DNA of 55,641 nucleotides from positions 1-55,641 of the forward strand of contig CAZASM010000004.1 in assembly GCA_964487895.1 (NCBI GenBank). Reading direction: 5' to 3'. The position numbers and the translations under genes are program-made. Positions 9,300 through 39,185 of this stretch are shown here, piece by piece (position 1 is the first letter of the stretch; every line of letters begins with the position of its first letter). The notes under the pieces were generated by a model. It did no database searches. It worked only from the letters and a program-made list of their open reading frames with translations, and was not told the origin of the DNA. The stretch is from an uncultured Gammaproteobacteria bacterium. Lineage in GTDB: Bacteria; Patescibacteriota; Patescibacteriia; UBA1558; 2-01-FULL-52-15.

Positions 9300-9460
9300 A
9301 GATCTCCTTTCTTCTTAAGTATAGTCAGCAGGGAGTTGGAAGTGTTTCTTCCACCCAGCAACTGACAGGTAGCAAATATTAAAATAAACAGAACTACCAT
9401 ATATTGTAGCTCTGTTGTTAGGAGTGTCAATCTGTTTTGCTGCGATAGGTTACTGTAATT

Positions 9461-9685
9461 CTATAGTGGAGGAAAAATTTGTTTACCCTCATCATCATAC
9501 AGGTAGATTGCTTTAGTCGGGCAACTCTCGGCTGCTGCCATGATTGTTTTATCATCATCGTGCTCTCCATCTTTCACTATAGCTAAGCCATTATCGTCTA
9601 ATGCAAAGGTTTTACCGGCGATGGCGACACATGAGGCCACGCTAACACATAGTTCTTGGTCAACTTTGATTTTCATACTAAGCAT
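9461..9685 (-). CDS. Small single-cluster ferredoxin
   Basis: 74 aa, Cys pattern C-x5-C...C-P, acidic. Its position next to korAB, cobA and nrdJ suggests an electron donor role. Confidence 0.65.
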   Translation of the reverse strand: MLSMKIKVDQELCVSVASCVAIAGKTFALDDNGLAIVKDGEHDDDKTIMAAAESCPTKAIYLYDDEGKQIFPPL

Positions 9686-9726
9686 ATTGTAGTTGAGTGT
9701 GTAAGTTTGTCAATTCCACATCCACA

Positions 9727-10260
9727 CATTTACCCCTCCTTTACAAGTAGGTCTGCCCGTCGCAGGCAGGGGCTAGGGGAGGTAAGTAATTCTTACGGAA
9801 TGAACTTGACCCTTATCTAACACCTGTTATGCTTATCCATGTACAAAAGGAGGAGCTCCGAAGGATTAGAAACGGGGCCTCTGATCCCTGTCGCGTCCGA
9901 TCATTGAGTTTCCAGCACTCAATGGCGACTAGGAGCTCCTCCATCTTCTTCGTTCATTCTATTTTTAGAGGGAAGGCCCGACACTTCAACCGCGAGCTGT
10001 CTGATCCGTTGGCAACGAAAGACGGTTTGCGGCCTTGAACGGCTGCGTCTGACAAGGCGCGCGGCCTGGGGCTTTCCCTCACTTGTTCATTTGATTACAG
10101 AACGCTGCCAAAAAAAACATGAGAAGTCGCTCACCACGGCTTCGCGGAGGTCCCCACCTCATGTGATGGTATTTCAGGGCACCATCGGCAGCGTTCACTT
10201 CTCACCGAGTAGCGGTTGAATTGCTCTGACAGCCCCCCTGTTGTCAGACGGTTTGGCTTC
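9727..10260 (+). other. High-GC non-coding structured region (candidate ncRNA or decayed foreign sequence) opening high-GC island 1
   Basis: Much higher GC than the flanks by eye. Nested perfect inverted repeats, for example ggaggagctcc...ggagctcctcc (9848-9943) enclosing cattgagt/actcaatg, and ctgcc/ggcag. No convincing ORF. Confidence 0.4.
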
Positions 10261-10360
10261 TGCTCGGTTTTTTTGATCATTACAATTTGACATTTTATAA
10301 ACCATATCCTATATTTTTGAATTGTAAGATGTCCTTTATATATTGAAGTTTAGATTTTGG

Positions 10361-10423
10361 GCTGATAGGTAGATTTAAATTATTTAAATGTAGCTATCAG
10401 CCCATAGTACTATCGGATATCCC
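10361..10423. repeat. Two perfect palindromes: gggctgatag-[25 nt]-ctatcagccc and ctatcggatatcccgatag
   Basis: Read directly; 10-bp and 7-bp perfect stems sharing ctatc. They lie between a putative promoter (ttgaca-17-tatatt, about 10289-10320) and the RBS of the island-1 gene. Confidence 0.6.
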
Positions 10424-10456
10424 GATAGACACAGGTGGCTGAAGAAGGAGGTTCGA

Positions 10457-11098
10457 TTGCTCGGTAACCCGCGGCACTTGAAGTATCCCCCCTGGTTCGA
10501 CACCTGTGTGACTCTGTTCGTGACTCTGATGGTCGCGCTCGGCTTCGGGCTCCTGATGCCCGTCAAGGCCGAAGCGGCAACGACGAAGTCTGTTTCCGGC
10601 GGTCTCCCTTTGGAGTGGTACGCAACCTGTCCCTCCAAGGCTGAGCCCCCCATGATCGGCGCGCAGTCCGCGGCAATGTTGCTGCAGGAAGTGAGGTCGG
10701 CTGACGCCACCTACGCTGCTTGCATGGCGAATTTCGGTCACTGCGTATTCTCTGCGACGAACTACGCGACGGTATCGATCACGAATCACGCCGACGGCGC
10801 CTCGATGATCATGCCAGCGATGATGACGACCACCGGCGGCAATACCAATGCCGCGGTTCTGATCAGCTACTATATCTCGACTATGCCCGACCGTTCCAAC
10901 CCGGCGGCCTATACCTCGGAGGGCGCCTCGACCGGGCGTTTCACCGGCGCCGCGTCGATGTACGCGGAGTTCGTTCCCGAGTATCGTCTTTCCAGGCCGG
11001 ATGTGGTCAAGACTCACTACTCACGACAACTGGACCGGGCGACTCGCGCGTCGCCCACCCACTCAACCAACCGGTTGATCCTGCGCAGGTTCTGCTGA
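10457..11098 (+). CDS. High-GC secreted hypothetical protein (signal peptide, Ala/Thr/Ser-rich)
   Basis: RBS aaggagg precedes a TTG start. Signal-peptide-like LFVTLMVALGFGLLMPVKAEA. The frame is uncertain because GC-rich DNA gives long ORFs in several frames. Confidence 0.4.
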   Translation: MLGNPRHLKYPPWFDTCVTLFVTLMVALGFGLLMPVKAEAATTKSVSGGLPLEWYATCPSKAEPPMIGAQSAAMLLQEVRSADATYAACMANFGHCVFSATNYATVSITNHADGASMIMPAMMTTTGGNTNAAVLISYYISTMPDRSNPAAYTSEGASTGRFTGAASMYAEFVPEYRLSRPDVVKTHYSRQLDRATRASPTHSTNRLILRRFC

Positions 11099-11154
11099 CC
11101 TGCACTTCTCGCCATCGGGACGCTTCCCGAAGTAGTTCAGTCTCGTGCTGACTA

Positions 11155-11195
11155 CGCCCCCGTTCGCTTCGGCGCTCGGGGGTTTTTTATTTTAG
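11155..11195 (+). terminator. Rho-independent terminator (gcccccgttcgcttcggcgctcgggggtttttt)
   Basis: GC-rich stem-loop followed by T-run; closes island 1. Confidence 0.6.
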
Positions 11196-11321
11196 TAATT
11201 TTTCAAGGGCAGGTCTCGACCTGCCCCTACAAATGCGAATTACATTTCCCCAATTCCTAATTTCTTAATTCATAATTCTTCATTCTTATTTTCTCACACT
11301 CGTGTTATAATAATCTCAATC

Positions 11322-13061
11322 ATGGTAAAAAAATATACGTGGAAAATCGGCGGCGAAGCAGGTTTTGGAATCAAAAGTGCCGGTCTGACGTTCAGTAAAA
11401 TTTGTACACGTGCGGGCTACGAAATTTTCGATGGTTCTGATTATCCATCGTTGATTCGTGGTGGTCATAATACCTATCAAGTAACTTTGAGTGATCAGCC
11501 GGTCTACAGCACAGAACAACAGGTTGATTTACTCGTGGCGCTGAATCAAAACACAGTAGATTTTCATTGGTCTGAGCTCAATCACGGAGCTGCTGTGATC
11601 TATGACAAGACGACAACTAAGATTCCCCGTCATGACGCTAACAAAAATATTCGTCTTTATCACGTACCTTTCAAAGATATTATTACCAAAGCGGACGGCT
11701 TCATCGTGATGCGTAATGTCGTAGCGCTGGGGGCTACTTTGGCTTTGATGAAGCTACCGTTTCGTCTACTGGAGAGTATGTTGAAAGAAACTTTTATTGA
11801 TAAACCAAAAATAATAGATATTAATGTCCGTACAGCTAAAGCCGGCTATGACTACGTGCAGAAAGAGTATCACGAAGAAGAATATAAAATTGATCTCAGT
11901 CATTTTACACCCCGTGACAAGAAGCATCAGCGTTTGGTCATTCCTGGTAATGAAGCAATTGCTCTTGGTGCTCTAGCGGCTGGCTGTAATTTCTACGCTG
12001 CTTATCCTATGACACCGTCTTCGTCCATCTTACATTATTTAGCTAGTGTAGCAGCTACTAACAAGATGATCGTCAAACACGCTGAGGATGAAATCTCGGT
12101 GATTAATATGGCACTTGGCGCTTCACATGTTGGTGCGCGAGCGATGATTGGTACCTCTGGTGGCGGCTTTTCTCTAATGGTCGAAGCTCTAGGCTTAGCT
12201 GGTATTACTGAAACGCCATTAGTTGTTGTTGAGGCGCAGCGCCCTGGTCCAGCCACAGGTTTACCAACCTGGACAGGACAAGCTGATCTACAATTTGTCT
12301 TACATGCTGCCCAAGATGAGTTTCCTCGTATTATTCTGGCACCGGGTGACACCGAAGAATGTTTCTATTTGACGGCTCAAGCTTTCAATTGGGCAGAGCA
12401 ATATCAATTGCCAGTAGTTATCTTGACTGATAAATATTTGGGCGAGGGTTATCGTAGTACAGTGGAGTTTGATTTAAAGAAAATAAAGATTAACCGCGGT
12501 AAACTATTAACTGCCAGTGCTGCTGCTCGAGCAAAAGATTTCAAAAGATTCAAAGTCACTGCAGATGGCGTCTCACCGCGCACGTTGCCAGGAATGAAAG
12601 GTGGAGAGTTCTTAGCCAATAGCGACGAGCATGATGAATATGGCTGGTCACATGAGGGCTCTGAGAATCGTATCTCTCAATATGACAAAAGAGCTCGTAA
12701 ATTACAGTTAGCAGCAGCACAGCTTGGTGGTGCAAATGTCTATGGTAATCCTAAGGCTAAGAAAACCATTATTGCTTGGGGTTCAACTAAAGGTCCAATA
12801 CTTGATGCTCTGTCTACTATGACACGAGGTAAGGAATTTAAACTCTTACACCTGAATGTCATCTGGCCTTTTCCCAAAGAAGCAGTTAGTAAGGTTTTGG
12901 CTAGTAGTAAAAAGGTTATCCTGATGGAAAATAACGGTACTGGTCAGCTGGGAAATATCATTGCTCAAGAAACTGGTTATGAGATTCGACAGAAGTTTTT
13001 GAAATATGATGGCAGGCCTTTGTTTCCGGAGGAGATTAGACAGCATTTAGCAGGTTTATAA
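11322..13061 (+). CDS. korA: 2-oxoacid:ferredoxin oxidoreductase alpha (fused alpha/gamma) subunit
   Basis: The N-terminus WKIGGEAGFGIKSAG...GSDYPSLIRGGHN resembles the two-subunit KorAB type. Confidence 0.75.
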   Translation: MVKKYTWKIGGEAGFGIKSAGLTFSKICTRAGYEIFDGSDYPSLIRGGHNTYQVTLSDQPVYSTEQQVDLLVALNQNTVDFHWSELNHGAAVIYDKTTTKIPRHDANKNIRLYHVPFKDIITKADGFIVMRNVVALGATLALMKLPFRLLESMLKETFIDKPKIIDINVRTAKAGYDYVQKEYHEEEYKIDLSHFTPRDKKHQRLVIPGNEAIALGALAAGCNFYAAYPMTPSSSILHYLASVAATNKMIVKHAEDEISVINMALGASHVGARAMIGTSGGGFSLMVEALGLAGITETPLVVVEAQRPGPATGLPTWTGQADLQFVLHAAQDEFPRIILAPGDTEECFYLTAQAFNWAEQYQLPVVILTDKYLGEGYRSTVEFDLKKIKINRGKLLTASAAARAKDFKRFKVTADGVSPRTLPGMKGGEFLANSDEHDEYGWSHEGSENRISQYDKRARKLQLAAAQLGGANVYGNPKAKKTIIAWGSTKGPILDALSTMTRGKEFKLLHLNVIWPFPKEAVSKVLASSKKVILMENNGTGQLGNIIAQETGYEIRQKFLKYDGRPLFPEEIRQHLAGL

Positions 13062-34373: not shown

Positions 34374-35237
34374 TTACTTGAGAAAGTTGATCCCCTGCTG
34401 AAACCGGAGTTCCAGCTGAGGCGATTGACCCTCCACGATGTGGTGGTTGAGTTCCAGTCGGGATCTCCAACCCAACTGGCGCTGGATAGAGAAGAGACCA
34501 CCGAAGCGATTGCTGGCATTGACCTCTTCGAACTGTGCGCCGACTGACCAAACTTCGCTGAGTTTGACGATGCCGTTGAAGTGCAACGCGGTGTTGTCAT
34601 ATTCACGACGGGCAAGTGCAAAGTTCAGTTGCAGCGGTCCGTGCGCTGTTCCGATGAAAATCGCTTCGTAGTCACGATTTCCACGCGGCTCAACCTGACC
34701 AACCAGACTTACTGTCAGGTCGGGAGCCAAGTTGAACACAATGCGTCCAGCCAGATCGAGATCACCGTCGACGTTTTTGTTCAGAACGCCCTCGCCGTTG
34801 TAAGCGGCAAGGTGCGCCGAGAAGCTCTTGTCGGTATAGCCGACCATCACGCCCTCGTCCACGAACTGAGGGTTCAGCTTGAGGAGCGGGGTCGACGGAA
34901 AGAAAACATTCCACGGCCCCGGATGATCATAGGTCGTCAGCGTCAGCAGGATGCCGGCATCGACCTTGAGCCCCGAACCCAGGACGTAATTGACGTCCAA
35001 GATCTGGGGTTTGTTACTGACGAGGTTGTACTCACCGACGAGCGTCAGGCGCTCGTTGATGACCTTCTTGCCCAGCAGCCGAGCCACGGGGATATCGAAG
35101 GCCTCGTTATCGCCGGCGATGCTGCCCGTGGTCTGGAAGTATCCCCACAGCAGGTTGGTGTTCGACTGGGCTTCGGCGGACTGACAGGTGATGCTAACGC
35201 CGAGGAAAGCCACCAGTGCGATCAGGACAGACTTCAT
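34374..35237 (-). CDS. Secreted beta-strand-rich protein (porin/outer-membrane-like or periplasmic), high GC
   Basis: Signal peptide MKSVLIALVAFLGVSITCQSAEA; alternating hydrophobic pattern; RBS aaggagg. Confidence 0.45.
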   Translation of the reverse strand: MKSVLIALVAFLGVSITCQSAEAQSNTNLLWGYFQTTGSIAGDNEAFDIPVARLLGKKVINERLTLVGEYNLVSNKPQILDVNYVLGSGLKVDAGILLTLTTYDHPGPWNVFFPSTPLLKLNPQFVDEGVMVGYTDKSFSAHLAAYNGEGVLNKNVDGDLDLAGRIVFNLAPDLTVSLVGQVEPRGNRDYEAIFIGTAHGPLQLNFALARREYDNTALHFNGIVKLSEVWSVGAQFEEVNASNRFGGLFSIQRQLGWRSRLELNHHIVEGQSPQLELRFQQGINFLK

Positions 35238-35460
35238 GAACTGCCTCCTTACGGTTGAGTTGGAATGCTATTGTATTTCGTCTACGCCGCTGAAGATCTC
35301 TAAGGGCCAAAAGGCCGAGAGCTACGATCTGGGAGATTATCAGACAGGTCCGATAATAACCACAGACAAGGTATCTCTATATTGATCCGCTAGACAGCTA
35401 AAGCTGGAGTAGATCAACCAGATCTCCATGGGTGTAGACGAAATATGATTTATAAATGTG

Positions 35461-35533
35461 CGTTACTTTTCTGAACCAACCATCATTGATGATGAGTTCG
35501 GAAGAGCGGACGATACACCGAGGTGTATCGTCC
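35461..35533 (-). repeat. Island-2 intergenic repeat, copy A (conserved arm plus variant hairpin cggacgatacac-ctcg-gtgtatcgtccg)
   Basis: Shares ttctgaaccaaYcatcWttgWtgatga...cggaagag with copy D. A hairpin occupies the same position as in copies B, C and D but has a different sequence. Confidence 0.6.
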
Positions 35534-35550
35534 GATCACTACTGTCGTGT

Positions 35551-35991
35551 TCAGGGTTCGTCAGTTGGGGTAGCTTTCACCAACCAAAGGAAGTCGTTGT
35601 GGTAGATGCCTTGTGAGTCATTGTAGTGTACGTTAGTCACAAGCACCTTTTGACCGGCACGGACATCAACAGGATGAACCGTCTTAATCGTGTATACGGT
35701 TCCTTTGGGGTCTCTTGCTTCAAAGAAGCACAGGCCAACTTCCGAAGCCTCGCTGATGATACCTGTGACGACTTCATAGGTCGCGGGCTTGGTCCAGGGA
35801 TCGGTCAGGATTTCAGTGGGTTTGTAGGGCTCCACCGGAGAGTCGACAGCGACCTGATCGCTGGCGATCGCCGTACTGCGATCGGGCCAAGGAGCGGTCG
35901 TGCCCTTGGTCTTGTCGATGTAGTAGTACAGCGCAATAACGACAACTGCCAGAAATCCAACGAACTTCCATGTACGCATAAAACGGGGCAT
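35551..35991 (-). CDS. NfeD-like short protein (N-terminal TM plus C-terminal OB-fold beta domain)
   Basis: TM helix followed by GTVYTIKTVHPVDVRAGQKVLVTNV, which resembles the NfeD C-terminal domain that usually partners SPFH proteins. Confidence 0.4.
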   Translation of the reverse strand: MPRFMRTWKFVGFLAVVVIALYYYIDKTKGTTAPWPDRSTAIASDQVAVDSPVEPYKPTEILTDPWTKPATYEVVTGIISEASEVGLCFFEARDPKGTVYTIKTVHPVDVRAGQKVLVTNVHYNDSQGIYHNDFLWLVKATPTDEP

Positions 35992-36068
35992 GGTAGAAAC
36001 CTCCTAAAAGAGTGAATAGCTATACAGTAGTGTTATATGTAAACCGCTAAGCTAGCGGTGTTTTCGAA

Positions 36069-36149
36069 GAACGAATTACACGTCTGAGACTACTAGATCA
36101 AAGTCTACTAATCTCGGATGTGTGGAGGAAGCGACGAATCGCTTCCTCC
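36069..36149 (-). repeat. Island-2 intergenic repeat, copy B (hairpin ggaggaagcg-acgaat-cgcttcctcc)
   Basis: About 85% identical to copy C over roughly 80 nt; lies immediately 3' of the stop of the 114-aa gene. Confidence 0.65.
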
Positions 36150-36154
36150 GATGA

Positions 36155-36498
36155 TTACCTCTGCTGCACCCAATGAATATGAGACGGATGAGTTGAGTGG
36201 AATTCGGACGTAACTCCGTCTCCCAACTCGATGAAAGACTGCCGAATCATTTTTTCGGCTTGGAGAAACCCTTCCGCCGCCGACGTTTCATCAGCAAATC
36301 GAAATTTCTCCAGAAAAACACCCGCCACTTCTGGTTGTTCCGTCTCGAATTCTTCGTCTCCGAAGGAGACGACCCAACCTTTTTCTTTTTCGATCATACC
36401 GTTACATGACGGTAAATCGAATCCAGGGGACCAGAGGAACAAGTCGCTTCCTCTGAGTACGCATTCGAGCCCTCTGTAACTGTTGATGCATGCGAACA
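36155..36498 (-). CDS. Acidic cytoplasmic 114-aa hypothetical protein
   Basis: Strong RBS gggaggagg 6 nt upstream of the ATG at 36498. The track ORF extends to 36700 only by reading through repeat C. Confidence 0.45.
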
Positions 36499-36617
36499 TT
36501 TTTGCCTCCTCCCACCGAAGTGGGGATGTAAGTCTGGCCGGTCTGCGCGGAATGCGTGACCGGTAGAGCCAATCCCCTTCGCTGCGGGGTAGAAAAAACT
36601 TTTTATTTGAATGTAAT

Positions 36618-36698
36618 GAACTTAGTACACATCTGAGATTATTAGAACGAAGTCTACTAATCTCGGATGTGTGGAGGAAGCGATGTTCTGCTTCCTCC
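36618..36698 (-). repeat. Island-2 intergenic repeat, copy C (hairpin ggaggaagcg-atgttctg-cttcctcc)
   Basis: See copy B; the hairpin loop differs while the stem is conserved. Confidence 0.65.
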
Positions 36699-36712
36699 AA
36701 TTTGAACCATGT

Positions 36713-37063
36713 TCAGCGTCGCAGCCAGAACAGCAAGAAAAATGTTACAGTTCCGATGAGCCAGATGATCCCACCTGATACCAGGATGAATCTTACTCGG
36801 CTGACACGTAACTTGCTACTGCAACGATCGATCAGGTCAGGCCTGATATATTGATTGCTGAAATGCACGTAGAGCAAGATGGCCAGTGTGGTTACTGACA
36901 TCCCACCCAAGTTCGAGAAACAGAGGTAAGCTATCGGCTCAAGCAGACCTCCTGGTCCGGTATAGGGGCAAATCAAAGCATCGCGGAGCATGAGACCAAA
37001 GATTAGAATCACGACAGGAATTGAAAATCCTGTCGGTACATCTAGACTTCTGCGATTGAGCAT
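36713..37063 (-). CDS. Three- to four-TM small membrane protein
   Basis: RBS ggagg; hydrophobic helices. Confidence 0.45.
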   Translation of the reverse strand: MLNRRSLDVPTGFSIPVVILIFGLMLRDALICPYTGPGGLLEPIAYLCFSNLGGMSVTTLAILLYVHFSNQYIRPDLIDRCSSKLRVSRVRFILVSGGIIWLIGTVTFFLLFWLRR

Positions 37064-37137
37064 TGAAACCTCCAGAAAACTGGTGCACAGCAGTAAGAAA
37101 GATGTATGTAAATTGTCTTAAAGACAGCTTATGAAAA

Positions 37138-37271
37138 GAACTTAGTACTCTTCTGAACCAATCATCTTGTATGATGACAAGCTCGGAAGAGTGGAGGAAG
37201 CGACGAATCGCTTCCTCCATGAGAACATTTCGGTCATGTTGACCAGGTTGTTCTCCTATACCTTGTTGAAG
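37138..37271 (-). repeat. Island-2 intergenic repeat, copy D (full-length: stop-proximal arm, ggaggaagcgacgaatcgcttcctcc hairpin, distal arm)
   Basis: Contains all modules. The stop-proximal arm ttcggtcatgWtgaccaggYtgttctcc...gaagTTA recurs as copy E (34324-34373) after the last gene. Confidence 0.65.
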
Positions 37272-39185
37272 TTACCTGCTGAATTCGGGAGACGACGGAC
37301 CGTCGGTCATCGGGGGCTCGTCACCTTCGACGCTCACTGAGGCGGCATCGGGGGTGAACGGAACCTTCCTGACTTCCGGCGCCTTGCGCTCGAGACTGTC
37401 CTTGATCAGGCCAGCCATGAGCACGTTGACGAGAGTGTTACCACCACCGTCAGCACCACCGCCAGCCACGACGTCCGGTACCAGCTTGAAACCGCTGGTG
37501 GACAGCGCGCGGGCGACTTCGATCATGGCGAAGTTGCCGGATTCCATGGAGTCGATCTTCTGCTTGATGACCTTGGCTTCGGACGTTCCGACAGCCATGA
37601 TCTTCTCGCCTTCAGCGGCGCCGACGGTCTTGAGGACCATAGCGTCAGCTTCAGCGACGAGCTTCTTGGACTCGGCTTCACCCTTGGCCTTCTCGACGGC
37701 CGCGTTGGCCTCGAAGGTCTTGATGGAAACCTGCCGTTCCGCCTTCACCACGTCGGGCTGTGTGTCCGCCATGGCCTGAGCCTGCTGCAGATCACGCCGG
37801 ACATCCTGAGCCTTCTTCTGGGAAGCATAGGTAACTTCCCGTTGTTCGGCCAGCTTCCGGTCGGTCAGCGTGGTCATGAGATCATCCGGCGGAACGATGT
37901 CACCGATGAGGGTGTCCACCGCCACGACGTTGTACTCGTTGAGCGCTTCGGAAATCTTCGTGCGAGCATCGGCTTGACGTGCTTCGCGACCGCGCAGGAA
38001 GTCGATGACATCCGACCCCTGAGCAGTGTTGCGGAAGTAGTTGCCGATGATCGGCTCCAGCACCTGTGTCACCAGGTTCAGGACGCTGCCGAAGCGTGCG
38101 ATGACCTTCGGCGCTTCCTTGCCCGGAATGTGGATGATCTGGGAGACGTCGAGGTTGAACTTGAAGCCGTCCGACGACCGAACGGTGATCGTCGACAGCT
38201 TCTCATCCAGCTTGTGTGCCTCGGTCTTGCCCGTGGCCCAGTTCAGGACCACGTTGGCGGTCGGCACGTTCTCGACCTTGTGGGTGTAGGAATTGATCGG
38301 GTACTTGCCAGGATCGAGTGTGTCGACCCAGACGCCCTTCTCCCCCCGAGTCACCAGATTGCCGTGCTTGAAGGCCTCACCGGTGACGTCCACGCCTGCC
38401 TTGCCCACGTAGGCGATGACAACGCCGACATGAGCGATAGGAACGGTGGTCATCTCTTTGATTTCCACCGTGGCGAAACGCGGGTTGATGAAGTAGCGAC
38501 CAGCGAGCATCACCTGTTCCTGGAGGCCCTTATGACCTCCATTGTCGATGAAGCTCTGGCCATCCTGGTACATGTTGTGGCCGACGATCTCGTTTCCAGC
38601 GATGTCGCCAGTTGCGAGGGGCTTGCCTTCACGCGTCGTCACGATGCCGACCATGTTGTCCTCGATCTCGAGCACATTGGTCATGACCACCGTGAAGAGT
38701 GCAGTGTTGATGCGGTAGGTGCCAGGTGGGATGATCGTGATCTGAGGACCACGCTCTCCACCGTTTTCCAAGAAAAGCCGAGCGCTCTGGAAAGAGTCGC
38801 ACTCGATTCTCTTGGCGAGCACGCGACCGCCGGACAGCGGCTTACCGTCACGCGACTCGACGACTCCGAGGCTACCCTCGGGGATTTCCAGGAACTTCAC
38901 GCGTTCCACCTCATACTGCCACGGCCAGAAGCCGAAGTGCAGTCCGGGCGCCAGCGTGTCGGCCTGGTAGCCAGCTTCGCCCTTGAGAGCGATGATGGCG
39001 CCGTCGGGCAGGGTACGGTTGCCTCCGAAGAGGACGAACTTCTTGTTCACCACGCCGAGGGAATCCTCGGGGATGATGACGACTCCGAAGAGTCGCACCC
39101 AGATCCGGTTGGTCAGGATCAGCAGGAACAGGACGATCACCCCGATTGCTACGGGGACAAAGGGTCCGAGCAGCTCTTTCACCAA
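37272..39185 (-). CDS. Flotillin-like SPFH (band 7) domain protein
   Basis: N-terminal TM, SPFH core, then a long Ala/Glu/Lys-rich coiled-coil (AEQREV...EKAKGEAESKKLVAEADAMV...) typical of bacterial flotillins. The likely start is the GTG at 39182. Confidence 0.75.
   Translation of the reverse strand: MVKELLGPFVPVAIGVIVLFLLILTNRIWVRLFGVVIIPEDSLGVVNKKFVLFGGNRTLPDGAIIALKGEAGYQADTLAPGLHFGFWPWQYEVERVKFLEIPEGSLGVVESRDGKPLSGGRVLAKRIECDSFQSARLFLENGGERGPQITIIPPGTYRINTALFTVVMTNVLEIEDNMVGIVTTREGKPLATGDIAGNEIVGHNMYQDGQSFIDNGGHKGLQEQVMLAGRYFINPRFATVEIKEMTTVPIAHVGVVIAYVGKAGVDVTGEAFKHGNLVTRGEKGVWVDTLDPGKYPINSYTHKVENVPTANVVLNWATGKTEAHKLDEKLSTITVRSSDGFKFNLDVSQIIHIPGKEAPKVIARFGSVLNLVTQVLEPIIGNYFRNTAQGSDVIDFLRGREARQADARTKISEALNEYNVVAVDTLIGDIVPPDDLMTTLTDRKLAEQREVTYASQKKAQDVRRDLQQAQAMADTQPDVVKAERQVSIKTFEANAAVEKAKGEAESKKLVAEADAMVLKTVGAAEGEKIMAVGTSEAKVIKQKIDSMESGNFAMIEVARALSTSGFKLVPDVVAGGGADGGGNTLVNVLMAGLIKDSLERKAPEVRKVPFTPDAASVSVEGDEPPMTDGPSSPEFSR

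What the first reader, a model, noticed from the sequence alone, without database searches (positions are those of the whole stretch)
9727..11200. High-GC island 1: about 530 nt of heavily structured GC-rich non-coding sequence followed by a promoter, two perfect palindromes and a secreted-protein gene
The region 9727-10260 has no credible ORF but many nested perfect inverted repeats, for example the 11-bp pair ggaggagctcc/ggagctcctcc enclosing cattgagt/actcaatg. It looks like a structured RNA (ribozyme, intron fragment or donor-derived ncRNA) rather than decayed coding sequence. Downstream come ttgaca-17-tatatt, then gggctgatag-25nt-ctatcagccc and ctatcggatatcccgatag (an operator-like pair), then a high-GC ORF with a signal peptide, and a strong terminator. 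The composition matches island 2, so both may come from one donor.
Basis: seen in the sequence. Interest (0 to 1): 0.6.

Follow-up and report, generated by a model that had tools for sequence, protein, structure and literature searches.

The report
New structured RNA gene in CPR bacteria
The GC-rich "non-coding" stretch is a real, previously uncatalogued ~430-nt structured RNA gene of a small clade of ultra-small (CPR/Patescibacteria) bacteria, and next to it lies a separately transcribed, fast-evolving orphan secreted-protein gene with foreign-looking codon usage.

Summary

Positions 9840-10270 (+) form a stand-alone RNA gene:
- It has its own extended -10 promoter (9806-9833).
- It has three folding modules: H 9846-9945, A 9968-10080, B 10100-10196.
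- It ends in a long hairpin plus U-run (10204-10270).
- It folds far better than shuffles on the + strand (z -8.1) than on the - strand (z -3.8).
- Its helices keep pairing through compensatory changes in syntenic relatives: 22 of 75 pairs in three lineages, and P1 of module A fully covaried in a Komeilibacteria MAG.
- No Rfam 15 family matches, here or in five homologous loci.
- Its GC (54%) equals that of the genome's tRNAs, so it is resident, not donor-derived.

The two "operator" palindromes are 5'-UTR RNA hairpins with compensatory changes. A further conserved stem buries the ribosome-binding site.

The ORF is truly coding: GC3 is 0.79 against 0.36 for neighbouring genes, and indels are in frame. 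It is an orphan with dN/dS of about 0.7 and dS five-fold below its neighbour POR, so it looks like a laterally exchanged cassette.

Function is unknown. The best guess is a trans-acting or protein-binding sRNA. It is a new RNA family of a known kind, of moderate interest.

The parts
9686..9713 (-). Promoter of the divergent ferredoxin gene (TTGACA-16-TACAAT). It marks the left limit of the RNA locus.
   Evidence: 11 of 12 consensus matches. The -35 region is conserved in L001, L016, L033 and L035, read.
9735..9784 (.). GC-rich nested hairpin (CCCCTCC..CTGCC-cgtcgca-GGCAG..GGGGAGG) lying between the two divergent promoters. It is a lineage-specific insertion and not part of the RNA gene.
   Evidence: Sequence. 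Absent from the L001 alignment. Single copy in the window.
9806..9833 (+). Promoter of the ncRNA: TTGACC-16-TATGCT with TG (extended -10). The predicted transcription start is about 9840.
   Evidence: The same TTGACC..TGnTATGCT is present in L001 at 9385-9412.
9840..10270 (+). The whole structured ncRNA gene (~430 nt): modules H, A and B plus the terminator hairpin T.
   Evidence: Fold z -8.1 on + against -3.8 on -. No Rfam match. Covariation.
9846..9945 (+). Module H: a ~100-nt hairpin domain closed by the 11-bp stem GGAGGAGCUCC/GGAGCUCCUCC.
   Evidence: I7. Homologous module in L033 with the outer stem kept 11/11 through changes. Absent from L001.
9968..10080 (+). Module A: a three-way junction made of P1 (12 bp), P2 and P3, with the conserved junction sequence GGYCCGACA.
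   Evidence: 93.8% of cells are paired, and 13 of 35 pairs carry a change on both sides, against 2-3 in the slid controls. Found in L001, L002 and L037.
10100..10196 (+). Module B: a 10-bp closing stem P4 (GAACGCUGCC/GGCAGCGUUC), an inner stem, and a C-rich anti-SD-like motif (GGUCCCCACCUCA), followed by a conserved CAGGGC.
   Evidence: P4 is 10/10, 10/10 and 12/12 paired, with 4 positions changed on both sides. B-like RNAs occur in L016/L017, L035 and L037.
10204..10270 (+). Module T: a long terminator hairpin followed by a run of seven T.
   Evidence: helices 9 and 10 are 94% paired, with 5 pairs changed on both sides.
10287..10344 (+). Promoter(s) of the ORF: TTGACA-17-TATATT, and an overlapping TTGAAT-16-TATATT. 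The AT-rich block is strongly conserved.
   Evidence: Conserved in window, L001 and L002 (73-77% identity).
10358..10428 (+).
   Evidence: I1. Compensatory changes between the window and L001 in the inner stem of hairpin 1 and in hairpin 2.
10429..10509 (+). Stem ACACAGGUG/CACCUGUGU enclosing the SD sequence, the TTG start and the first 17 codons. The SD pairs with the C-rich PPW codons.
   Evidence: I16.. The SD unpaired probability is 0.12-0.28 in 4 lineages, against a median of about 0.55 in 20 control genes.
10457..11098 (+). Orphan gene for a 213-aa secreted or membrane-anchored protein, with high GC3 and fast evolution.
11143..11190 (+). Intrinsic terminator of the ORF.
   Evidence: There is also a weak NsiR1-terminator-like alignment.

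Best explanation
The finding covers two adjacent but separate transcription units in a CPR/Patescibacteria genome related to Komeilibacteria.

**Unit 1 (9806-10270, + strand)** is a stand-alone gene for a ~430-nt highly structured non-coding RNA of a family not in Rfam.
- It is driven by its own extended -10 sigma-70-type promoter and ends at a long intrinsic terminator.
- It is built of independently folding modules (H, A, B) joined by AU-rich linkers.
- The modules are gained, lost or split into separate genes between related lineages, while the locus stays fixed just downstream of the divergent ferredoxin promoter.

The most likely mode of action is inferred, not shown. The RNA probably acts in trans as a regulatory or protein-binding RNA.
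- Module B exposes a C-rich, anti-Shine-Dalgarno-like motif (CCCCACCUCA, CCCCCCUCCA, CCUCCCUCCA). This motif could pair with GGAGG ribosome-binding sites, as C-rich Gram-positive sRNAs do.
- Modules A and H, with conserved junction sequences, probably bind a protein or ligand.

**Unit 2 (10287-11190, + strand)** is an orphan gene for a secreted protein.
- It has its own promoter and a structured 5' UTR; the two 'palindromes' are RNA hairpins.
- A conserved stem buries the ribosome-binding site, so translation is probably repressed by default.
- Its high-GC3 codon usage, low dS and high dN mark it as a laterally acquired or exchanged cassette, younger than the surrounding backbone.
For: **RNA gene**
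- Fold z is -8.1 on + against -3.8 on -.
- G-U pairs and the T-run exist only on the + strand.
- A promoter lies at 9806-9833, and a second strong promoter lies after the terminator.
- On a sequence-only MAFFT alignment of three lineages, 92.7% of cells pair against 36-43% when partners are slid. 22 pairs are changed on both sides against 0-4 slid, and 0 of 500 shuffles reach this.
- Module A in four lineages is 93.8% paired with 13 double changes. P1 is fully replaced in L037 (ACGCGGCGGUCC/GGAACCGCCGCGU).
- Module H is conserved in L033.
- No Rfam family matches at gathering score or at E<=10 in the window, or at E<=1 in five homologous loci.
- GC is 54%, like the tRNAs.

**Stand-alone, not cis-acting**
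- The downstream gene differs between lineages: the ORF in the window, L001 and L016; gene X in L002, L033 and L035; a 104-aa gene in L037.
- Complementarity between the terminator and upstream sequence is no better than with shuffled sequence.

**ORF**
- GC by codon position is 0.51/0.54/0.79, and GC3 is 0.74-0.81 in four lineages, against 0.34-0.51 for POR.
- Indels are in frame.
- The signal-peptide-like helix spans residues 12-31.
- Only 3 relatives exist among 1.84 billion representatives.
- dS is 0.47-0.69 and dN/dS 0.64-0.77, against dS 2.7-3.5 and dN/dS 0.02-0.03 for POR.
- The SD is sequestered in all four lineages.
- UTR stems keep pairing through changes.
Against: - There is no expression data. 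Transcript ends are predicted from consensus motifs only.
- Covariation rests on three or four lineages per module, and one of the alignments was fitted to the model.
- The L037 hit is weak (17 bits, E 0.06-0.14).
- Homology of the B-like RNAs in L016, L035 and L037 rests on short shared motifs, without a statistical test.
- In some lineages the C-rich motif is partly inside a predicted stem.
- A 430-nt multi-domain RNA is atypically large and ornate for a simple base-pairing sRNA.
- Predicted ncRNA-mRNA duplexes were not consistent across lineages.
- Low dS of the ORF could partly reflect selection on mRNA structure or on G/C-ending codons rather than recent transfer.
Confidence: 0.6

Rival explanations
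1. The RNA is a cis-acting leader (a riboswitch or attenuator). Module A would be an aptamer, and the long hairpin a regulated terminator controlling the genes downstream on the same strand (gene X, the secreted-protein ORF, or the POR operon).
For: - It has the same orientation as all downstream genes.
- Module A is a three-way junction with conserved junction nucleotides.
- The terminator sits 60-85 nt upstream of gene X's start in L002, L033 and L035.
- In the window a 12-nt complementarity links 9982-9993 to 10212-10223 inside the terminator (I9).
Against: - That complementarity is not conserved. In all four lineages the best pairing between upstream sequence and the terminator 5' strand is no better than with shuffled strands.
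- A near-consensus promoter follows the terminator in every lineage (TTGACA overlaps the T-run in L002, L033 and L035).
- The downstream gene differs between lineages, and the RNA is retained where gene X or POR is absent.
- No Rfam riboswitch matches.
Confidence: 0.15
2. The RNA is a highly divergent version of a housekeeping RNA (6S, RNase P, SRP or tmRNA) that the Rfam models miss in CPR bacteria.
For: - CPR RNAs are often divergent.
- The locus is conserved across the clade.
- GAGGGAAGGCCCGACA superficially resembles the RNase P CR-I motif GAGGAAAGUCCGG (own knowledge).
Against: - No hit to any such family even at E<=10 on 1.7 kb with lax filters, and none in five homologous loci.
- ARAGORN finds no tmRNA.
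- Whole modules are present or absent between close relatives: L001 lacks H, L016 has only B, and L033 lacks A and B. This is not how essential housekeeping RNAs behave.
- The architecture does not match a 6S rod or the RNase P P4 pseudoknot. No 3' partner for a P4 helix was found by reading the sequence.
Confidence: 0.07
3. The whole 9727-11200 stretch is one foreign island from a high-GC donor, and the structured part is a remnant of a mobile element, intron or ribozyme.
For: - GC is elevated relative to the 43% genome.
- The ORF has GC3 0.79, low dS and orphan status.
- Other high-GC3 genes lie in island 2.
Against: - The RNA part has the GC of local tRNAs.
- The RNA diverges as much as the backbone (59-65% identity), and its stems have covaried.
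- It is syntenic down to a Komeilibacteria MAG that lacks the ORF.
- No intron or ribozyme family matches.
- No integrase, transposase or RT gene lies within +/-10 kb in the window's relatives.
- There are no flanking repeats or extra copies.
- There is no match in the phage or plasmid collections.
Confidence: 0.07
4. The region is not a functional element at all. It would be a decayed pseudogene, chance GC-rich hairpins, or an assembly chimera.
For: - GC-rich sequence folds well by itself.
- Only a few lineages are available.
Against: - The z-score is computed against dinucleotide-preserving shuffles and is strongly strand-asymmetric.
- Compensatory changes far exceed the slid and shuffled controls.
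- The same organisation is seen in independent NCBI, JGI, ENA and Logan assemblies.
- Gene X proteins have no tblastn trace in the window.
Confidence: 0.03

Closest known systems
C-rich trans-acting sRNAs of Gram-positive bacteria (RsaE/RoxS type)
   Same: - Stand-alone gene with its own promoter and intrinsic terminator.
- C-rich, anti-SD-like motifs.
- Located among redox and central-metabolism genes (ferredoxin, cysteine desulfurase, 2-oxoacid:ferredoxin oxidoreductase).
   Different: - No Rfam RsaE hit.
- Four times larger, with extra three-way-junction and long-hairpin modules.
- The C-rich motif is not always in an unpaired loop.
- Targets are unknown.
Large ornate bacterial ncRNAs of unknown or recently found function (OLE, ROOL, GOLLD, raiA, HEARO)
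   Same: - Several hundred nucleotides with multiple conserved helices and junctions.
- Found by comparative genomics and restricted to particular lineages.
   Different: - No match to any of their Rfam models.
- Modules are dispensable between close relatives.
- No association with phage, tRNA or IscB genes.
- Only a handful of sequences are known.
Riboswitch or attenuator leaders
   Same: - A junction domain with conserved unpaired nucleotides, followed by a terminator.
- Same strand as the downstream genes.
   Different: - No conserved antiterminator.
- A promoter lies between it and the next gene.
- The downstream gene is variable.
SD-sequestering 5' UTRs (RNA thermometers and sRNA-activated mRNAs such as rpoS), for the ORF's leader
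   Same: A conserved stem pairs the SD with downstream C-rich codons in four lineages.
   Different: - No match to the ROSE, FourU or other thermometer families.
- The trigger is unknown.

Membership tests
Any Rfam 15 family (4227 covariance models, including introns, ribozymes, riboswitches, 6S, RNase P, SRP, tmRNA, OLE, ROOL, GOLLD, raiA, HEARO and RsaE) | Score at or above the family's gathering threshold | tested here: not met
   - only three tRNAs in the window.
- at E<=10 over 9600-11300, only chance hairpin or terminator hits far below threshold.
- nothing in L001, L002, L016, L033 or L035 at E<=1.
Riboswitch or transcription-attenuation leader | Mutually exclusive terminator and antiterminator pairing, conserved across homologues | tested here: not met
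   the best duplex between upstream sequence and the terminator 5' strand is no better than with a shuffled strand in the window, L001, L002 and L037 (25 to 198 of 200 shuffles do as well).
Riboswitch or transcription-attenuation leader | Same regulated gene family immediately downstream, with no intervening promoter | tested here: not met
   - The downstream gene is the ORF (window, L001, L016), gene X (L002, L033, L035) or a 104-aa gene (L037).
- A promoter matching 11 of 12 consensus positions lies at 10287-10315.
Stand-alone bacterial sRNA gene | Own promoter and own intrinsic terminator, on one strand, with no conserved ORF | tested here: met
   - Promoter at 9806-9833, conserved in L001.
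- Terminator hairpin plus T-run at 10204-10270 in all lineages.
- ORFs are at most 69 aa and not conserved.
- Expression itself could not be tested.
Conserved structured RNA | Helices maintained by compensatory substitutions beyond the controls | tested here: met
   13 of 35 and 22 of 75 pairs are changed on both sides, against 0-4 in slid controls, and 0 of 500 shuffles reach this. Caveat: only 3-4 sequences.
C-rich anti-SD sRNAs (RsaE/RoxS-like) | C-rich motifs exposed in loops that pair with SD regions of target mRNAs | tested here: inconclusive
   - A CCCC(A)CCUC(C)A motif is present in module B of the window, L001, L002, L016, L035 and L037.
- It lies in a hairpin loop in the window and L002 but is partly in a stem elsewhere.
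- Target pairing is not consistent between lineages.
Group I/II intron or self-cleaving ribozyme | Interrupted host gene or intron-encoded protein, plus a catalytic core motif | tested here: not met
   - The region is intergenic, between complete ferredoxin and ORF/POR genes.
- No RT or maturase was called within 10 kb in the relatives.
- No Rfam intron or ribozyme hit.
Horizontally acquired genomic island (applies to the ORF cassette only) | Atypical composition and codon usage | tested here: met
   GC3 is 0.79, against 0.30-0.46 for about 45 other ORFs in the window. GC3 is 0.74-0.81 in four lineages.
Horizontally acquired genomic island (applies to the ORF cassette only) | Mobility genes, tRNA or att-site flanks, and patchy distribution | tested here: not met
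   - No integrase or transposase is called nearby.
- No flanking repeats in the window.
- The ORF sits at the same locus in five lineages.
- However, dS is five-fold lower than in POR.
Diversity-generating retroelement or retron | Reverse transcriptase plus a template/variable repeat pair or msr-msd | tested here: not met
   - No long direct repeat links the RNA and the ORF (the longest are 17-19 nt at 74-76% identity).
- No RT domain appears among the called genes of the syntenic loci.
- The rest of the window was not scanned for RT.

The most novel reading that the evidence does not exclude
The locus encodes a CPR-specific class of large, ornate, multi-domain RNA. It spans about 430 nt here, and about 0.7-1 kb as two adjacent RNA genes in a Komeilibacteria MAG. 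It would work as a ribozyme or as the scaffold of a ribonucleoprotein, comparable in status to OLE, ROOL or GOLLD. These ~1-Mb genomes would retain it because it serves a core redox, Fe-S or cell-surface function linked to the flanking ferredoxin/POR genes and the translationally masked secreted protein.
Probability: 0.2. Interest if true: 0.75.

Novelty: new member of a known kind. Interest (0 to 1): 0.5.

Why it matters
[quoted passage not shown] I found no description of CPR-specific structured RNAs in two full-text literature searches.

A half-kilobase RNA locus kept at one place across a clade is therefore likely to do something important. It gives a concrete candidate for metatranscriptomic and biochemical follow-up.

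The neighbouring gene is a compact case of three things together:
- a surface or secreted protein evolving at a near-neutral rate on a saturated backbone;
- foreign codon usage maintained in several lineages;
- a conserved translation-masking leader.

This is relevant to how episymbiotic bacteria vary their surface.

Tried and rejected
- **Metagenome scan.** The single scan used a 22-base pattern from module A. It returned 14 loci, all chance matches in high-GC coding DNA. In hindsight the pattern was too strict, because L037 would not match it.
- **MAFFT alignments.** Those of module B and of module A with L037 misplace the 3' strands, so stems were checked by explicit pairing.
- **Protein of the ORF.** Pfam and NCBIfam give no hit. 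The AlphaFold model is unusable (pLDDT 35), so no fold search was run.
- **ncRNA-mRNA duplex prediction.** There are many strong GC-rich duplexes. One homologous site is shared by the window and L001 but not L002, so it is not treated as evidence.
- **Antiterminator hypothesis.** Rejected.
- **Pseudoknot 9982-9993/10212-10223.** Not conserved in L001; reduced to 6 bp in L002.
- **DGR-type template/variable repeats.** None found.
- **Phage and plasmid BLAST.** No match.
- **Literature searches.** Nothing on CPR structured RNAs at this locus.
- **RNase P, 6S, SRP and TPP resemblances.** Considered from memory and dropped, for lack of any model hit or matching architecture.
Full report
**What is there**

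The window is a 43% GC genome fragment. Its 2-oxoacid:ferredoxin oxidoreductase (POR) is closest to unnamed MAG proteins at 87% and 70% identity, then to Komeilibacteria, Falkowbacteria and Peregrinibacteria proteins at 55-61%. It is therefore a CPR/Patescibacteria bacterium from a thinly sampled clade.

The finding lies between two genes:
- a ferredoxin gene at 9461-9685 on the - strand;
- the POR alpha gene, starting at 11322 on the + strand.

**The GC-rich stretch is an RNA gene on the + strand**

- Positions 9727-10275 fold to -224.3 kcal/mol on the + strand, against -174.5 +/- 6.2 for dinucleotide shuffles (z -8.1). The reverse strand reaches only z -3.8.
- Many conserved pairs are G-U, which would be C-A on the other strand. 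The last hairpin is followed by a run of seven T on the + strand only.
- A promoter-like site with an extended -10 (TTGACC-16-TGtTATGCT, 9806-9833) precedes the structure. The same motif sits in front of the homologue in L001.
- The ferredoxin gene has its own divergent promoter at 9713-9686.
- The predicted RNA therefore runs from about 9840 to 10270.
- The stretch 9727-9838 holds only the promoters and a GC hairpin (9735-9784) that relatives lack.

**Homologues and covariation**

The RNA and the ORF are syntenic in the following loci.

| Locus | Source | Identity to window | Content at the locus |
|---|---|---|---|
| L001 (= L004, L015) | NCBI MAG and JGI contig | POR 87% | modules A, B, T; then the ORF |
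| L002 | Logan assembly; contig starts inside the RNA | POR 87% | modules A, B, T; gene X; then the ORF |
| L016 / L017 | ENA and Logan | POR 70% | only a 150-nt B-like RNA; then the ORF |
| L033 | JGI metagenome contig | ferredoxin 77% | module H, another hairpin, a terminator; then gene X |
| L035 | Logan assembly | ferredoxin 82% | two structured RNAs, each with a terminator; then gene X |
| L037 | Komeilibacteria MAG | ferredoxin 70% | about 1 kb of structured RNA; no ORF and no POR |

Whole core, on a sequence-only alignment of the window, L001 and L002:
- The consensus structure has 75 pairs, and 92.7% of cells are paired, against 36-43% when the partners are slid by 1-3 columns.
- 22 pairs are changed on both sides, against 0-4 in the slid controls, and no shuffle out of 500 reaches this.

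Module A:
- A covariance model (R1) finds the L037 copy at 17 bits, E 0.06-0.14.
- In that copy the 12-bp closing stem is entirely replaced yet still pairs.
- In four lineages, 13 of 35 pairs show double changes.

Modules B and H:
- The closing stem of module B is 10/10, 10/10 and 12/12 paired in three lineages, with four positions changed on both sides.
- The outer stem of module H is 11/11 paired in the window and in L033 despite three changes.

The number of lineages is small, and one alignment is fitted to the model. The evidence is good but not of R-scape grade.

**Not a known family**

- Rfam 15 gives nothing at gathering score in the window, and nothing relevant at E<=10 in 9600-11300.
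- It gives nothing at E<=1 in five homologous loci.
- ARAGORN finds no tmRNA.
- There is no similarity to phage or plasmid records.
- Two literature searches found no description.

**Resident, not donor-derived**

- The RNA is 54% GC, within the range of the window's three tRNA genes at 47-58%.
- Its divergence between lineages (59-65% identity) is at least that of the backbone.
- It is single-copy, with no flanking repeats.

**Modular architecture**

- The window carries H + A + B + T.
- The AU-rich linkers before A and between A and B carry a repeated GUUCAUU motif in the window and in L002.

**Cis or trans?**

- The gene downstream of the terminator differs between lineages.
- A near-consensus promoter always follows the terminator.
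- The best complementarity between the terminator's 5' strand and upstream sequence is no better than with shuffled strands in all four lineages tested.
- The 12-nt pairing seen in the window (I9) is not conserved.

I therefore favour a stand-alone RNA over a riboswitch-like leader.

**Likely mechanism (inference)**

- Module B and the B-like RNAs share a C-rich, anti-Shine-Dalgarno-like motif: CCCCACCUCA, CCCCCCUCCA, CCCACCUCA, CCCUCCU and CCUCCCUCCA.
- In the window and L002 the motif forms the loop and 3' arm of a small hairpin (GAGGU-CCC(C)-ACCUC; read from the sequences).
- This is the hallmark of C-rich trans-acting sRNAs that mask ribosome-binding sites. The family comparison here is from my own knowledge.
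- Modules A and H have conserved unpaired junction sequences (GGYCCGACA; GAAGG, UCUGAU). These suggest a protein or ligand partner.
- Duplex predictions against the neighbouring mRNA gave no consistent site.

**The neighbouring gene**

The ORF 10457-11098 is genuinely coding:
- GC by codon position is 0.51/0.54/0.79, and GC3 is 0.74-0.81 in four lineages.
- Indels between lineages are multiples of three.
- Different 5' ends still encode a basic N-terminus, a hydrophobic helix and an A-x-A-like site.

It is an orphan:
- There are two hits among 5.8 billion clusters, and three among 1.84 billion representatives with a profile.
- There is no Pfam or NCBIfam match, and the AlphaFold model is unusable.

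Its evolution is anomalous:
- Differences are spread evenly over codon positions (62/54/66).
- dN is 0.36-0.45, dS 0.47-0.69 and dN/dS 0.64-0.77.
- The adjacent POR has dS 2.7-3.5 and dN/dS 0.02-0.03.
- Blocks of about 70 nt are identical in three lineages.

The simplest reading is that the promoter-UTR-ORF cassette is younger than the backbone. That means lateral exchange or recombination among these lineages from a high-GC3 source, with weak or diversifying selection on the protein. Constraint on synonymous sites is the alternative.

Because the arrangement recurs in independent assemblies, a chimera is excluded.

**The 'operator-like' palindromes**

- Both palindromes keep pairing while changing sequence between the window and L001. 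The inner stem changes from AGAUUUAAAU/AUUUAAAUGU to GGUUUUA/UAAAACC, and the second hairpin from CUAUCGG/CCGAUAG to CAUCGG/CCGAUG.
- L002 has a different long hairpin at the same place.
- They are therefore 5'-UTR RNA hairpins.
- A further conserved stem (10429-10437 with 10501-10509; GGCGCAGGUG/CACCUGUGCC in L001) encloses the SD and the start codon.
- In all four lineages the SD is predicted to pair with C-rich codons just downstream. Its unpaired probability is 0.12-0.28, against a median of about 0.55 for 20 other genes of the window.
- Translation is probably masked by default. The trigger is unknown.

**Verdict**

The palindromes are RNA, not operators, and the locus is two units, not one island.

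The RNA is a new family of a known kind (a bacterial structured sRNA), restricted as far as can be seen to a Komeilibacteria-related clade. Interest is moderate (0.5).

The most novel reading not excluded is a CPR-specific large ornate RNA with a ribozyme or RNP role (probability about 0.2).

Noticed in passing
window 34374-39185: 'Island 2' holds two genes with GC3 0.72 and 0.78, against 0.30-0.46 elsewhere. One is a weak BBP2 porin-like secreted protein (34374-35237, -). The other is an SPFH/Band 7 protein (37272-39185, -). An outer-membrane-type porin is odd for a CPR bacterium and suggests transfer from a high-GC diderm.
   Followed up: partly
window 9735-9784: A GC-rich nested hairpin (CCCCTCC..CTGCC-cgtcgca-GGCAG..GGGGAGG) is inserted between the divergent ferredoxin and ncRNA promoters. 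It is absent from L001 and single-copy in the window.
   Followed up: partly
window 11207-11227: A perfect 9-bp hairpin, GGGCAGGTC-tc-GACCTGCCC, lies just after the ORF terminator with no T-run on either strand. It is absent from L001 and L002.
   Followed up: no
window 11240-11300; L001 9735-9830 and 10760-10890; L016 9900-9980: Each lineage has its own short AT-rich repeat upstream of the POR promoter:
- window: TTCTTAATTC-like;
- L001/L002: CTTTCAACTTACAACT, in both orientations on both sides of the ORF cassette;
- L016: ATTACGAAT.

These could be regulator sites or recombination scars of the cassette.
   Followed up: no
L033 680-1417 (-), L035 3-707 (-), L002 413-988 (+): An uncharacterised 'gene X' (191-245 aa, no Pfam or NCBIfam hit) directly follows the ncRNA terminator in three lineages. 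A conserved TTTGACAAAAAT overlaps the T-run. The gene is missing from the window, L001 and L016. The L033 and L035 proteins are 26-28% identical; the L002 ORF is not significantly similar.
   Followed up: partly
L037 5003-6000 (- strand): A Komeilibacteria MAG has about 1 kb of GC-rich structured RNA at the same locus, organised as two RNA genes with separate terminators. The first includes module A. The second carries the ACUCACAC and CCUCCCUCCA motifs. The POR genes are absent there.
   Followed up: partly
window 11040-11098; L032 15-317: The ORF's C-terminus comes in two forms...RASPTHSTNRLILRRFC (the window, and the L032 fragment P0123) and ...RASPKVIVDIT / LIDII (L001, L002, L016). The window's form is a real allele, not a frameshift artefact.
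   Followed up: partly
window 9951-9963 and 10084-10096: A repeated linker motif, GUUCAUU(C/U), precedes module A and module B in the window and in L002. It could be a processing or protein-binding site.
   Followed up: no
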